DNA from: a virus
Lineage: Duplodnaviria; Heunggongvirae; Uroviricota; Caudoviricetes
Virus record (IMG/VR): IMGVR_UViG_2869947659_000007
Span: 1 to 26,870 of that record
DNA: 26,870 nt
Strand: one strand, 5' to 3'
Part shown: positions 20,901-23,900 of the stretch, one piece after another
How the letters are laid out: each line of letters opens with the position of its first letter
Numbering within the stretch: the stretch's first letter is position 1
Made by a program: the position numbers

Positions 20901-23900
20901 CAGCAGAGGTGGCATTGCTTTTTCGATAGCTGGTAACAACGCCTGAATTTTTTTAAGCGCATCAGGGGTGTCTTTCTCCACCCAGCGGAAAATTTTCTGA
21001 GTATTGCGAGCCAGGGCTTCCGGATGGCTGTCGTCATACAGTTCCGGGAACGTCATTCCCAGCTCGAAATACGCTTTGGTAATTTTCGCAGCCGGTACTT
21101 TTTCGCCGTCCGGATGCGCCCAGGCATTCATCGCCATGCGGATGTGTTCATGCTTGATTTTCATGAATCAACTCCCATCAGCTTTTTCGTAGTAGTTTTA
21201 TTCCTGCCAATAGTTAAAATTGCATCGGCAGAAAATAATCCGTTTGATGCAAGAGCGATTTTTTCAGCGTAATTTGTTTCGCCGGTATATTCTGTGCGAG
21301 GCAATTTTCCGTTATCCATCCATTTATAGATTGCTCTTTGGCTGACACCACAAACGTCGGCCACAACAGCAACGCGAACAGTTTTGATTACATCTTCAAG
21401 TGTTTTCTGGTTCATATCACCCTCACAATGTGAACTTTGAGTACATGCCATAACAGAACTGACAGTACATTCAAGAGCGAATATCATTGAACTTATGGTT
21501 CATGAAGATAAAGCGCGTAAAGAGTTCGCCAGTAGGCTTGCGCTAGCCTGTGAAAACGCTGGTTATGAACAACATGGAAGGCAGGCAGAAATTGCCCGTC
21601 GAATGAAATTAACACCAAAAGCGGTTAGCAAATGGTTTAATGGCGAAACAATTCCTCGCCGGGAGAAATTAAGGGAATTAGCAACACTAATAGGAACAAC
21701 ACCAACCTATCTTTTGGGAGAGGATACAGAAGAAAGTGGACAGGTACGTTTCTATCAGGAGTTAAATCCAAGACAAAAAATCATCATTGACCTTCTGGAC
21801 GAGCTCCCTGACAGTGAGACAGATGAACTTTTAAAAACTCTTGAAGAGAAAAAACAGAAGTACAATGCAATTTACGAAGAGTTAGCACGAAAGAAAAAAC
21901 AAAAAGCCTCTTAAACCAGCATAAATCCGGTAGCGCCTTCCTCCGGGTTTGTGCTTCACTTTATCCCATCTCATTTTTTTACACACAAAATGTACCATAA
22001 GCACTTTACAACAATGAACGCAAAGTACATTATATGCCTGCCACCCACCCCGCCCCACAGAATGCAGGGCAATACTTCGAGTTACCAGGCAGTGGTCAGG
22101 GGTTAAGTAGCCAGCCCGAGGCGTAAGAACATGACGGCAGGGTTCAACTTTAATAACTATGCAGCAGGTTTTTGTTCCGCTACCCCGGCGTTAAGGGGAA
22201 ATGAGGTCAGCATGGATACTATCGATCTTGGGTAATGACTCCAACTTACTGATAGTGTTTTATGTTCAGATAATGCCCGATGACCTTGTCATGCAGCTCC
22301 ACCGATTTTGAGAACGACAGTGACTTCCGTCCCAGCCTTGCCAGATGTTGTCTCAGATTCAGATTATGTCGCTCAATGCGCTGAGTGTAACGCTTGCTGA
22401 TAACGTGCAGCTTTCCCTTCAGGCGTGATTCATACAGCGGCCAGCCATCCGTCATCCATACCACGACCTCAAAGGCCGACAGCAGGCTCAGAAGACGCTC
22501 CAGTGTGGCCAGAGTGCGTTCACCGAAGACGTGCGCCACAACCGTCCTCCGTATCCTGTCATACGCGTAAAACAGCCTGCGCTGACGTGATTTAGCACCG
22601 ACGTAGCCCCACTGTTCGTCCATTTCAGCGCAGACAATCACATCACTGCCCGGTTGTATGCGCGAGGTTACCGACTGCGGCCTGAGTTTTTTAAGTGACG
22701 TAAAACCGTGTTGAGGCCAACGCCCATAATGCGTGCACTGGCGCGACATCCGACGCCATTCATGGCCATATCAATGATTTTCTGGTGCGTACCGGGCTGA
22801 GAGGCGGTGTAAGTGAACTGTAGTTGCCATGTTTTACGGCAATGAGAGCAGAGATAGCGCTGATGTCCGGCAGTGCTTTTGCCGTTACGCACCACGCCTT
22901 CAGTAGCGGAGCAGGAAGGACATCTGATGGAAATGGAAGCCACGCAAGCACCTTAAAATCACCATCATACACTAAATCAGTAAGTTGGCAGCATTACCCA
23001 AAAAATGACAAAGTAAGAAAACGCCAGGGAATTAAAGGTGGTTTTTACTGGACTACAGCAAAAAAATTATCTGTTGCAATCTCCCGCTGCATTACCGCAA
23101 TGGATGACAACGATTATGATGAAGACGACTTTAAAAAACCCGTCCGCGTCAATTTGCCCGTTGTTGACGACCTTCCGCCAGAAGGCGTGTTTGATACTGA
23201 ATTCTGCAACCGCTATGAAAAAGGCGGGAAAGATGGCATCACAATGACATTTATCGGCCCTTCCCCCTCTGTTCAGGACAAATCAGCCAGCACTGATAAT
23301 ACCAACATCAACGGCGAAGACATGACTGAGATTGAGGAGAGCATGCTTCTACCTGTCTCCGGTCAGGAACTGCCCATTCGTTGGCTTGCTCAACACGGCA
23401 GCGAAAAACCAGTAACGCACGTTTCACGCGACGAACTCCAGGCATTACACATTGCACGGGCTGAAGAACTACCGGCTGTTACTGCCCTGGCTATTTCGCA
23501 TAAAACCAGTCTGCTCGACTCGCTGGAGATTCGCGACCTCCACAAACTGGTTCGTGACACTGACAAAGTTTTCCCTAATCCTGGTAATTCAGACCTGGGA
23601 CTAATAACTGCTTTTTTCGAAGCATACTTGGACGCTGACTACACTGATCGGGGCCTGCTGACAAAAGAGTGGATGAAAGGAAATCGTGTTTCACGCATCA
23701 CCCGCACGGCTTCCGGTGCTAATGCTGGTGGTGGGAACAAAACCGATCGCAATCCGAATTTAGTACACACCCTCGACACACTGGATGTGGAGATTGCAGC
23801 AGCCACACTTCCGATGGATTTTAATATTTATGAAATTCCGGGCAGCGTTTATCGTCGCGCAAAAGAAGTAGTCCTGAAAAAAGAAAGTCCGTTCAAAGAA

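What the first reader, a model, noticed from the sequence alone, without database searches (positions are those of the whole stretch)
21416..22035. Shared 16-bp operator-like motif on both sides of the repressor gene (OR and OL analogues)
tgaactttgagtacat (21431-21446) in the divergent cro/repressor intergenic region is echoed by tgaacgcaaagtacat (22015-22030) downstream of the repressor gene, with a third partial copy at 21456-21470. This suggests the repressor controls two promoters as in lambda, with the leftward promoter now feeding only into IS1.
Basis: seen in the sequence. Interest (0 to 1): 0.45.

Follow-up and report, generated by a model that had tools for sequence, protein, structure and literature searches.

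The report
HK022-type operators flanking a short prophage repressor
The repeated motif is real: it is the set of repressor/Cro binding sites (three on one side of the repressor gene, two on the other) of a common E. coli-type prophage, clearly homologous to the well-studied operators of phage HK022, so it is a correct but ordinary finding.

Summary
The 16-mers are 15-bp pseudo-palindromic operators, TGAAC-N5-GTWCA.
- OR1: 21431-45
- OR2: 21455-69
- OR3: 21488-502 (missed; overlaps the repressor ATG)
- OL2: 21991-22005 (missed)
- OL1: 22015-29

The cro-OR-repressor N-terminus segment is about 70% identical in DNA to phages HK022/HK75. Their annotated oR1-3 and oL1-2 have the same half-sites, the same 24/33-bp and 24-bp spacings, and the same pL hexamers. 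Nine homologous immunity regions from five genera keep the half-sites while the 5-bp spacers drift. Hetero-immune modules in the same ydaT…ydfA slot lack the motif and carry their own.

The 139-aa repressor is a mosaic: an HK022-CI-like DNA-binding domain plus a DicA-like C-terminal domain, with no S24 peptidase domain. pL now runs into IS1, which sits 20 bp into ydfA and is associated with loss of ydfABC-dicF-dicB. This copy's OL2 carries a substitution at an otherwise invariant position.

This is a new member of a known kind, of low-to-moderate interest. No binding experiment was possible.

The parts
21431..21445 (.). OR1 operator, TGAACTTTGAGTACA. It lies between the PR -10 and the cro start.
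   Evidence: Exact match to TGAACN5GTWCA. It is positionally homologous to HK75/HK022 oR1. Its half-sites are invariant in 8 divergent homologs.
21455..21469 (.). OR2 operator, AGAACTGACAGTACA, 24 bp from OR1. Its centre, CTGACA, doubles as the -35-like hexamer of the repressor promoter.
   Evidence: One mismatch to the pattern. It is homologous to the annotated oR2, GGAACTGATAGTACA. Its spacer is nearly invariant across homologs, unlike the other spacers.
21488..21502 (.). OR3 operator, TGAACTTATGGTTCA, a perfect palindrome 33 bp from OR2. It contains the repressor ATG (21495).
   Evidence: Exact match on both strands. It is identical to HK022/HK75 oR3.
21991..22005 (.). OL2 operator, TGTACCATAAGCACT, abutting the -35 of pL. 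This copy has C instead of the otherwise invariant T at 22002.
   Evidence: Homologous to HK75 oL2 and to the HK022 oL site. Of 29 unique sites, 28 have T at this position; only this one has C. The only 3 differences from the closest complete E. coli genome over 832 bp all fall in this site.
22015..22029 (.). OL1 operator, TGAACGCAAAGTACA, lying in the spacer and -10 of pL, 24 bp from OL2.
   Evidence: Exact match. Homologous to HK75 oL1, TGAACTTTAGGTACA.
22005..22033 (+). pL-equivalent promoter, TTTACA-17-CATTAT, directed away from the repressor gene towards ydfA and IS1.
   Evidence: Called by the promoter scan with 9 of 12 matches. The -35 hexamer and the position are the same as the annotated HK022 pL, TTTACA-17-CATCAT. 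The hexamers are conserved in alignment A2.
21459..21487 (+). Candidate repressor-maintenance promoter (PRM analogue), CTGACA-17-TATCAT. The -10 ends 7 nt before the ATG and there is no Shine-Dalgarno sequence, so the mRNA is probably leaderless.
   Evidence: Called by the promoter scan with 10 of 12 matches. HK022 has the equivalent CTGATA-17-TATAGT. This is an inference; it is not annotated in the HK022 records.
21447..21474 (-). PR-equivalent promoter for cro, by position: TTGAAT-16-TATGGC, preceded by TGT (extended -10-like). Most relatives have TATAGC.
   Evidence: Positional homology with the annotated HK022 pR, TTGACT-16-CATAAT. The scan did not call it because it matches only 7 of 12. 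The polymorphism at 21449 is shown.
21495..21914 (+). 139-aa repressor. It has an HTH_3 N-terminal domain of HK022-CI type and a DicA-type C-terminal domain, with no S24 peptidase domain.
   Evidence: Pfam assigns HTH_3 only. It is 47% identical to the HK022 CI N-terminal domain and 50% identical over 135 aligned residues to a Klebsiella phage long CI, with most of the identity in the first ~76 residues. The C-terminal domain aligns with DicA and with a hetero-immune 139-aa repressor. Homologs fall into short forms and S24-containing long forms.
21161..21415 (-). 84-aa Cro-like lytic repressor.
   Evidence: 60% identical to HK022 Cro. Pfam HTH_17. RefSeq annotates an equivalent 84-aa CDS in L088.
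22212..22231 (+). 5' remnant (about 7 codons) of ydfA, the first gene of the pL operon, cut by IS1.
   Evidence: Matches the K-12 Qin ydfA upstream region and start at 98%. Intact operons are seen in Tritos and FDAARGOS_944.
22231..22999 (-). IS1 (768 bp, boundaries ±1 bp) with insA/insB on the - strand, so pL transcription enters it antisense. It is flanked by a deletion that reaches 41 bp into the exonuclease gene.
   Evidence: ORFs. The terminal repeats are read. Homology with Tritos stops at 22231. Homology with the FDAARGOS_944 exonuclease gene resumes at 23000, which is locus position 3501 of a CDS that starts at 3460.

Best explanation
The motif copies are the operators of a lambdoid immunity switch of the HK022 specificity type. 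There are five 15-bp pseudo-palindromes, TG(A/T)AC-N5-GT(A/T)CA. Three lie in the divergent cro/repressor intergenic region (OR1, OR2, OR3, centre-to-centre 24 and 33 bp). Two lie just downstream of the repressor gene (OL2, OL1, 24 bp apart). They are most likely bound by dimers of the 139-aa repressor through its HK022-CI-like helix-turn-helix domain, and by the Cro-like protein.

Steps inferred from homology:
- Occupancy of OR1/OR2 blocks the leftward-reading cro-ydaT-replication operon (PR analogue).
- Occupancy of OL1/OL2 blocks the pL analogue, TTTACA-17-CATTAT.
- OR3 overlaps the start of a probably leaderless repressor mRNA and would mediate negative autoregulation and Cro-mediated shut-off.

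What is shown directly: the sites, their statistics, their homology to annotated HK022/HK75 operators, their conservation pattern, and their co-variation with the DNA-binding domain.

The repressor's C-terminal domain is of the DicA type rather than a LexA-like peptidase. Inactivation is therefore expected to be RecA-cleavage-independent (by antirepressor or by bistable switching, as shown for DicA). Whether adjacent-site cooperativity and OL-OR looping are retained is unknown.

In this copy pL is a stranded promoter. IS1 sits 20 bp into ydfA, and ydfABC-dicF-dicB-ydfD are missing.
For: 1. Statistics. The three exact TGAACN5GTWCA sites give 4 matches (one site is palindromic); all lie within 600 bp; 0.11 matches are expected.

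2. Homology. Window 21246-21655 is about 70% identical in DNA to the HK022/HK75/O276 cro-OR-cI segment. The annotated oR1 TGAACTTATGGTTCA, oR2 GGAACTGATAGTACA, oR3 TGAACTTATGGTTCA, oL2 and oL1 TGAACTTTAGGTACA have the same order and spacing as the window sites.

3. Proteins. The repressor N-terminal domain is 47% identical to HK022 CI, with recognition helix TPKAVSKWFNGE against TPKAISKWFNGE. Cro is 60% identical to HK022 Cro.

4. Phylogenetic footprint. In 8-sequence alignments from Escherichia, Klebsiella, Citrobacter and Providencia, the invariant columns coincide with the ten half-sites and the pL hexamers. A Salmonella short-form locus has the same five sites, even with a HigB/HigA module inserted between the repressor gene and OL.

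5. Close relatives. In 58 unique sequences, 1 of 50 half-site columns is polymorphic (minor count of at least 2), against 36 of 183 other intergenic columns (Fisher p = 0.001). The 5-bp spacers are highly variable.

6. Negative controls. Four hetero-immune modules in the same ydaT…ydfA slot (DicA, RacR and two others) lack the motif. Each carries its own repeat on both sides of its repressor gene.

7. Literature. HK022 CI binds cooperatively to adjacent OR and OL operators and loops OL-OR (PMC8053113, citing Carlson & Little 1993). DicA is a short, non-RecA-cleavable repressor of a PR analogue (dicCp) and a PL analogue (dicBp), and is relieved by the antirepressor Rem (PMC10448788).
Against: - No binding or expression data exist for this protein or these sites.
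- The C-terminal domain differs from that of HK022 CI, so cooperativity and looping cannot be carried over.
- The PR analogue matches consensus poorly (TTGAAT-16-TATGGC, 7 of 12) and the promoter scan did not call it.
- The -35 of the candidate repressor promoter lies inside OR2, so lambda-style activation from OR2 is geometrically doubtful.
- OL2 in this window has C at an otherwise invariant T (22002) and may bind poorly.
- HK022's third OL site (53 bp from OL2) and its far-right operator have no counterpart here.
Confidence: 0.85

Rival explanations
1. The OR sites are working operators, but the OL pair in this particular copy is a vestige. With the pL operon destroyed by IS1 and a deletion, OL1/OL2 no longer regulate anything of consequence and are drifting. 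On this view the 'two-promoter control' is historical rather than current.
For: IS1 lies 20 bp into ydfA. The region from ydfA to 41 bp into the exonuclease gene is missing compared with intact relatives. The only three differences from the closest complete genome over 832 bp are all in OL2, and one is at an otherwise invariant half-site position.
Against: OL1 and the pL hexamers are intact. Two of the three OL2 changes are in the hypervariable spacer. OL sites may still matter for OL-OR looping or for limiting antisense transcription into IS1 and read-through into the exonuclease and integrase genes. This refines the main explanation rather than replacing it.
Confidence: 0.3
2. The repeats are targets of a different protein, either Cro alone or the CII-like YdaT, and not of the 139-aa repressor.
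For: Cro-type proteins do share operators with their repressors. A YdaT gene lies next to cro.
Against: YdaT recognises TTGATT-N6-AATCAA (PMC9986795). One perfect copy of that different motif lies elsewhere, at 21154-21171. The TGAAC motif co-varies with the repressor N-terminal domain: it is present with HK022-like N-terminal domains whether the C-terminal domain is long or short, and absent when the N-terminal domain differs although the C-terminal domain is the same. The homologous sites in HK022 are described as CI operators.
Confidence: 0.04
3. The similarity is a chance repeat or a by-product of promoter-like AT-rich sequence.
For: Short two-copy repeats are common in intergenic DNA; the repeat tool lists many.
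Against: None of 100 shuffles reaches the observed count. Geometry and half-sites are conserved in five genera while the spacers vary. Hetero-immune controls lack the motif.
Confidence: 0.01

Closest known systems
Phage HK022 (and HK75, O276) immunity region: CI, Cro, OR1-3, OL1-2, pR, pL
   Same: Same 15-bp operator type, TGAAC-N5-GTWCA. OR3 is identical in sequence. The 24/33-bp OR spacing and 24-bp OL spacing are the same, and OR3 overlaps the repressor ATG in both. The pL -35 (TTTACA) is the same, with OL1 in the spacer/-10. Cro is homologous (60% identity), as is the repressor DNA-binding domain (47% identity).
   Different: The repressor here has 139 aa and a DicA-like C-terminal domain, instead of 235 aa with an S24 self-cleaving domain. 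It has no counterpart of HK022's distal OL3 or far-right operator. The OR1-OL1 distance is 584 bp, against 856 bp in HK75. Downstream of pL lies the ydfA leader rather than putL/nun. The cII analogue is YdaT.
Qin cryptic prophage DicA-DicC-dicBp locus of E. coli K-12
   Same: Same gene order: cro-like, then a short repressor, then a promoter driving ydfA-ydfB-ydfC-dicF-dicB. The repressor C-terminal domain is homologous. The ydfA 5' region is shared. Operators lie on both sides of the repressor gene.
   Different: The DNA-binding specificity is different. DicA operators are TGTTAG-type and the TGAAC motif is absent. The dicBF part of the operon is deleted in this window.
CP-933P PaaR2-YdaS-YdaT switch (E. 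coli O157:H7) and Rac RacR-YdaS-YdaT
   Same: Same slot in Rac/Qin-like prophages, with YdaT as the CII analogue. A perfect YdaT site, TTGATTTTCATGAATCAA, lies at the cro/ydaT junction, as described for CP-933P. OR and OL carry shared repeats.
   Different: The PaaR2 repeats have the consensus GTTTAGTAA and RacR sites are TAGGC-type. There is no toxin-antitoxin pair downstream of this repressor.
Phage lambda OR/OL
   Same: Same general logic: one repressor, two divergent early promoters, three OR sites, a probably leaderless repressor mRNA, and 24-bp spacing of the cooperative pair.
   Different: The operator sequence and length are different, OL has two sites, and the repressor has no RecA-cleavable domain.

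Membership tests
HK022-type lambdoid immunity operators | 15-bp pseudo-palindromic sites TGAAC-N5-GT(A/T)CA | tested here: met
   There are three exact sites, one with 1 mismatch (OR2), and OL2 in the TGTAC…G(T>C)ACT form. The HK75/HK022 annotated operators have the same form.
HK022-type lambdoid immunity operators | Three OR sites between divergent cro and repressor genes, spaced 24 and 33 bp, with OR3 overlapping the repressor start codon | tested here: met
   Window sites start at 21431, 21455 and 21488; HK75 sites start at 2686, 2710 and 2743. The spacing is identical in all 9 loci compared.
HK022-type lambdoid immunity operators | An adjacent OL2/OL1 pair (24 bp) bracketing the pL -35 and -10 downstream of the repressor gene | tested here: met
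   Window sites at 21991 and 22015 with TTTACA-17-CATTAT. The arrangement aligns with the annotated HK022 pL and oL.
HK022-type lambdoid immunity operators | Repressor DNA-binding domain and Cro homologous to HK022 CI and Cro | tested here: met
   BLASTP gives 47% identity over 99 aa (E = 6e-32) for the repressor and 60% over 73 aa (E = 1e-33) for Cro.
HK022-type lambdoid immunity operators | Repressor carries a LexA/S24-type self-cleaving, cooperativity-mediating C-terminal domain | tested here: not met
   Pfam finds HTH_3 only and no Peptidase_S24. The C-terminal domain aligns with DicA. S24-bearing relatives share only the N-terminal domain.
HK022-type lambdoid immunity operators | Extra sites: a distal OL3 (53 bp from OL2) and a far-right operator downstream of cro | tested here: not met
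   HK75, the Klebsiella phage and the Citrobacter phage each have a site centred 53 bp from OL2, and HK75 has OFR. The window has no site with 2 or fewer mismatches at these positions.
HK022-type lambdoid immunity operators | Sites are physically bound by the repressor and by Cro | not testable with these tools
   This needs EMSA, footprinting or ChIP. Binding is documented only for HK022 CI, in the literature.
DicA/Qin-type short-repressor immunity locus | Repressor of about 135-140 aa with an HTH_3 domain and a DicA-like C-terminal domain, lacking a RecA cleavage site or S24 domain | tested here: met
   The protein has 139 aa. It aligns with DicA across residues 30-137 (E = 5e-15), including the C-terminal LSPKE…/LNPRQ… helices. 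The properties of DicA are described in PMC10448788.
DicA/Qin-type short-repressor immunity locus | Downstream promoter drives ydfA-ydfB-ydfC-dicF-dicB | tested here: inconclusive
   Only the ydfA leader and about 7 codons remain before IS1. Phage Tritos, 99.3% identical in the immunity region, has the full operon.
DicA/Qin-type short-repressor immunity locus | DicA operator sequence (TGTTAG-type repeats) | tested here: not met
   The Qin intergenic regions carry TTGTTAGTCATAACTAACAA-type repeats and no TGAAC-N5-GTWCA site. The window carries the reverse.
DicA/Qin-type short-repressor immunity locus | Inactivation by a prophage antirepressor (Rem) | tested here: inconclusive
   A tblastn search with K-12 Rem finds nothing in the window (best E = 0.55). 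However, the window holds only part of a rearranged prophage.

The most novel reading that the evidence does not exclude
One and the same operator set (TGAAC-N5-GTWCA, with fixed geometry) is served in nature by two kinds of repressor that share the DNA-binding domain. One kind has an SOS-cleavable S24 C-terminal domain (HK022 and the Klebsiella, Citrobacter and Providencia phages). The other has a DicA-type C-terminal domain (this prophage, found in about 1 in 5 complete E. coli genomes, and Salmonella relatives). The same DicA-type C-terminal domain is also found on unrelated DNA-binding domains that have other operators. That would make the linker a recombination joint, letting a phage swap its induction mode without changing immunity specificity. 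It also predicts that this cryptic prophage makes its host immune to HK022-type phages. In addition, the cluster of three substitutions in OL2 would be relaxed or derepressing drift following IS1-mediated loss of the toxic dicBF genes.
Probability: 0.4. Interest if true: 0.35.

Novelty: new member of a known kind. Interest (0 to 1): 0.22.

Why it matters
The result gives a precise, testable operator map for an immunity module carried by about 19% of complete E. coli genomes (1043 of 5426) and by an isolated phage (Tritos). It ties that module to the experimentally characterised HK022 switch. It also documents a clean natural example of a domain swap in a phage repressor: the same DNA specificity combined with a different induction and oligomerisation domain. 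For this particular locus, it shows that the pL analogue has been disconnected from its toxic cargo (dicF/dicB) by IS1. None of this overturns current understanding of lambdoid switches.

Tried and rejected
- **PaaR2/CP-933P operators.** These were considered because the gene order is the same. Their consensus (GTTTAGTAA) is different.
- **YdaT as the binder.** Its published site, TTGATT-N6-AATCAA, is a different motif. It occurs once, perfectly, at 21154-21171, and not at the OR/OL sites.
- **A sixth site at 22132-22146** (TGACGGCAGGGTTCA, 2 mismatches). It lies in the ydfA leader, which hetero-immune prophages also share, so it is taken as chance.
- **HK022-like OL3 and far-right operators.** Absent.
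- **A structured or known RNA in the pL leader.** Rfam finds nothing there. The fold z-score is +1.16, so there is no signal.
- **A Rem antirepressor homolog in the window.** None.
- **Source of the window.** No complete E. coli genome has this IS1 junction, and an exact-junction scan of species-representative genomes found nothing. The source remains unidentified.
- **Literature.** Full-text searches for the exact operator strings found nothing. A search for phage Tritos returned only unrelated papers, with no occurrence of 'phage Tritos'. The original HK022 paper (PMC206910) is not held.
- **Terminator after the repressor gene.** None was found by the scan.
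Full report
**Observation.** The expected number is 0.07, and no shuffle out of 100 reaches three.

**Local anatomy.**
- The 139-aa ORF at 21495-21914 (+) carries an HTH_3 domain.
- Divergent from it is an 84-aa HTH protein at 21161-21415 (-).
- This is followed on the - strand by a YdaT (CII-like) gene and a replication gene.
- Downstream of the repressor gene lie a sigma-70-like promoter on the + strand, then IS1 (about 22231-22999), then a RecE-N/DnaQ-like exonuclease gene.

**What the motif is.** A sensitive blastn search against phage genomes shows that window 21246-21655 is about 70% identical to the same segment of phages HK022, HK75 and O276. This segment covers most of cro, the intergenic region and the first ~50 codons of the repressor gene. 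The repressor binding sites are annotated in those GenBank records. Read in the window's orientation they are:
- oR1: TGAACTTATGGTTCA
- oR2: GGAACTGATAGTACA
- oR3: TGAACTTATGGTTCA
- oL2: TGTACTACTGGTACT
- oL1: TGAACTTTAGGTACA

The start-to-start spacings are 24 and 33 bp at OR and 24 bp at OL. The window has exactly this layout:
- OR1: 21431-45
- OR2: 21455-69
- OR3: 21488-502, identical to HK022 oR3 and containing the repressor ATG
- OL2: 21991-22005
- OL1: 22015-29

So the unit is a 15-bp pseudo-palindrome, TG(A/T)AC-N5-GT(A/T)CA. The three exact TGAACN5GTWCA sites of the window are all here. They give 4 matches because one is palindromic, against 0.11 expected.

**Promoters.**
- *pL.* The scan calls TTTACA-17-CATTAT at 22005-22033 (+). 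This is the positional homologue of the annotated HK022 pL, TTTACA-17-CATCAT. OL1 occupies the spacer and -10, and OL2 abuts the -35.
- *PRM analogue.* The scan also calls CTGACA-17-TATCAT at 21459-21487 (+). Its -35 is the centre of OR2. Its -10 ends 7 nt before the repressor ATG, and there is no Shine-Dalgarno sequence. I infer a leaderless repressor mRNA from a PRM analogue. OR2's spacer is nearly invariant in all homologues, unlike the other spacers, which fits this double duty.
- *PR analogue.* By position this is TTGAAT-16-TATGGC on the - strand (21474-21447). It is weak by consensus and the scan did not call it. Most relatives have TATAGC.

**Proteins.** The repressor's first ~76 residues are homologous to the DNA-binding domain of HK022 CI: 47% identity over the 99-residue alignment, with recognition helix TPKAVSKWFNGE against TPKAISKWFNGE. 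The repressor is 50% identical over 135 aligned residues to a Klebsiella phage long CI, with most of the identity in those first ~76 residues. Cro is 60% identical to HK022 Cro.

The C-terminal ~55 residues are not a LexA/S24 domain. They align with the C-terminal domain of DicA, the 135-aa repressor of the K-12 Qin prophage. They align even better with the C-terminal domain of another 139-aa prophage repressor whose N-terminal domain and operators are unrelated. A database search finds both architectures sharing this N-terminal domain: short forms in Escherichia and Salmonella, and S24-bearing long forms in Raoultella, Klebsiella and others. The repressor is therefore a mosaic of HK022-type DNA specificity and a DicA-type C-terminal domain.

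I compared nine loci:
- the window
- phage Tritos
- an E. coli O111 prophage
- a metagenomic variant whose repressor is 89% identical
- HK75 (HK022 was included in the alignments)
- Klebsiella phage 2 LV-2017
- Citrobacter phage Omnitron
- Providencia phage PSTNGR2lys
- a Salmonella prophage with a short repressor that is 65% identical

All nine have the five sites with identical spacing. The OR1-OL1 distance ranges from 575 to 2316 bp, depending on what is inserted between the repressor gene and OL.

In the alignments the invariant columns are the half-sites and the pL hexamers, and the 5-bp spacers differ. Among 29 unique sites, positions 2, 4, 5, 11 and 14 are invariant. Among 58 unique sequences of very close relatives from IMG/VR, only 1 of 50 half-site columns is polymorphic (minor count of at least 2), against 36 of 183 other intergenic columns (Fisher p = 0.001). 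Against the spacers alone the p-value is 0.0004.

**Negative controls.** Four hetero-immune modules sit in the same ydaT…ydfA slot: Qin DicA, a RacR type and two others. None has the motif in its intergenic regions. Each has its own repeat on both sides of its repressor gene. The motif therefore follows the DNA-binding domain, not the flanks or the C-terminal domain.

**Mechanism.**
- *Shown:* the sites, their non-random occurrence, their homology to annotated operators, their selective conservation, and their co-variation with the N-terminal domain.
- *From the literature:* HK022 CI binds cooperatively to adjacent operators in OR and OL and loops OL to OR (PMC8053113, citing Carlson & Little 1993). 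DicA represses a PR analogue and a PL analogue, is not RecA-cleavable, and is relieved by the antirepressor Rem or by DicC-dependent bistable switching (PMC10448788).
- *Inferred:* repressor dimers at OR1/OR2 shut off cro-ydaT-replication. Dimers at OL1/OL2 shut off pL. OR3 gives autoregulation and a Cro target.
- *Unknown:* whether the DicA-type C-terminal domain supports pairwise cooperativity or looping, and whether OR2 occupancy helps or hinders the repressor promoter.

**State of this copy.** Compared with phage Tritos (99.3% identical in the immunity region) and with E. coli FDAARGOS_944, IS1 sits 20 bp into ydfA. The sequence resumes 41 bp inside the exonuclease gene. So ydfA-ydfB-ydfC-dicF-dicB-ydfD are missing, and pL transcription enters IS1 antisense.

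The closest complete E. coli genome differs from the window at only three of 832 positions, and all three are inside OL2 (21996, 21998, 22002). The change at 22002 hits a T that is present in all 28 other unique sites. This fits relaxed constraint on OL2 once the toxic cargo is gone, but it remains an inference.

**Comparison and novelty.** The element works like the HK022 OR/OL system. It meets all the sequence-level criteria of that system: site type, number at OR, spacing, promoter overlap, and homologous DNA-binding domain and Cro. It fails two criteria: the S24 C-terminal domain, and the extra OL3/OFR sites. In gene order and C-terminal domain it is a DicA/Qin-type locus with a different specificity. 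It is not the PaaR2 or RacR specificity. I found no paper that gives these operator sequences for this prophage group. Even so, it is a straightforward new member of a well-known kind. The module is common, present in 1043 of 5426 complete E. coli genomes.

**Verdict.** The most novel reading still tenable is the modular exchange of the repressor C-terminal domain on a fixed operator set, with predicted cross-immunity to HK022.

Noticed in passing
window 21154-21171: A perfect YdaT (CII-analogue) operator, TTGATTTTCATGAATCAA, lies exactly at the cro-stop/ydaT-start junction. It is the only site in the window with fewer than 3 mismatches. Its position matches the footprinted OM site described for CP-933P YdaT, so it probably marks the PRE analogue for repressor establishment.
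   Followed up: yes
window 21996, 21998, 22002 (inside OL2): The only three differences from the closest complete E. coli genome over 832 bp all fall within OL2. The T>C change at 22002 alters a position that is invariant in the 28 other unique operator sites compared. None of about 95 fetched relatives has this allele.
   Followed up: partly
window 22231-22999 and 23000 onwards: The IS1 insertion is coupled to a deletion of about 1.6 kb. Compared with intact relatives, ydfA (after about codon 7), ydfB, ydfC, dicF, dicB, the ydfD-like gene and the first 41 bp of the exonuclease gene are missing. The long ORF 22824-25400 is a read-through artefact that starts inside IS1.
   Followed up: yes
window 1-753: A second IS1 copy, cut by the window start, is 99.9% identical to the one at 22231-22999 and lies in the same orientation. 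The two direct copies bracket about 21.5 kb and could mediate deletion or rearrangement.
   Followed up: partly
window 22036-22211: A leader of about 175 nt between pL and ydfA is nearly identical in hetero-immune prophages (RacR type and others) and is found in thousands of E. coli genomes. It marks the right-hand recombination boundary of the immunity module. It has no Rfam match and no unusual RNA folding (z = +1.16).
   Followed up: partly
window 21449: There is a polymorphism in the presumed PR -10. This window and a few relatives have TATGGC, while most relatives have TATAGC. This may be a weaker cro promoter allele.
   Followed up: partly
window 4918-12333: Chromosomal genes lie next to prophage early-region genes: a 2007-aa inverse autotransporter (intimin/invasin-like, with IAT_beta and many Big_1 repeats) at 4918-10941 (-), MtfA (Peptidase_M90) at 11356-12192 (-), and tRNAs at 11183-11255 (-) and 12247-12333 (+). 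In E. coli FDAARGOS_944 the tRNA-Ser/mtfA junction is next to the integrase end of a related prophage. Here it abuts the opposite arm, which suggests an inversion or another IS-mediated rearrangement.
   Followed up: no
window 17220-17395 (-); 4113-4220 (+); 15005-15823 (+): Rfam finds a sok antitoxin RNA (hok/sok module) inside the prophage and an ALIL pseudoknot (the frameshift element of an IS3-family IS). An rve-family transposase ORF lies at 15005-15823. The window is IS-rich, and no complete E. coli genome shares its IS1 junction. The source may be Shigella-like, but this was not identified.
   Followed up: no
L094/L095 (Salmonella prophages) and L087 (Providencia phage): In relatives, the space between the repressor gene and OL holds cargo: a HigB/HigA toxin-antitoxin pair in Salmonella and five small ORFs in the Providencia phage. 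This is analogous to rexAB in lambda and paaA2-parE2 in CP-933P. The OL2/OL1 pair stays intact downstream.
   Followed up: partly
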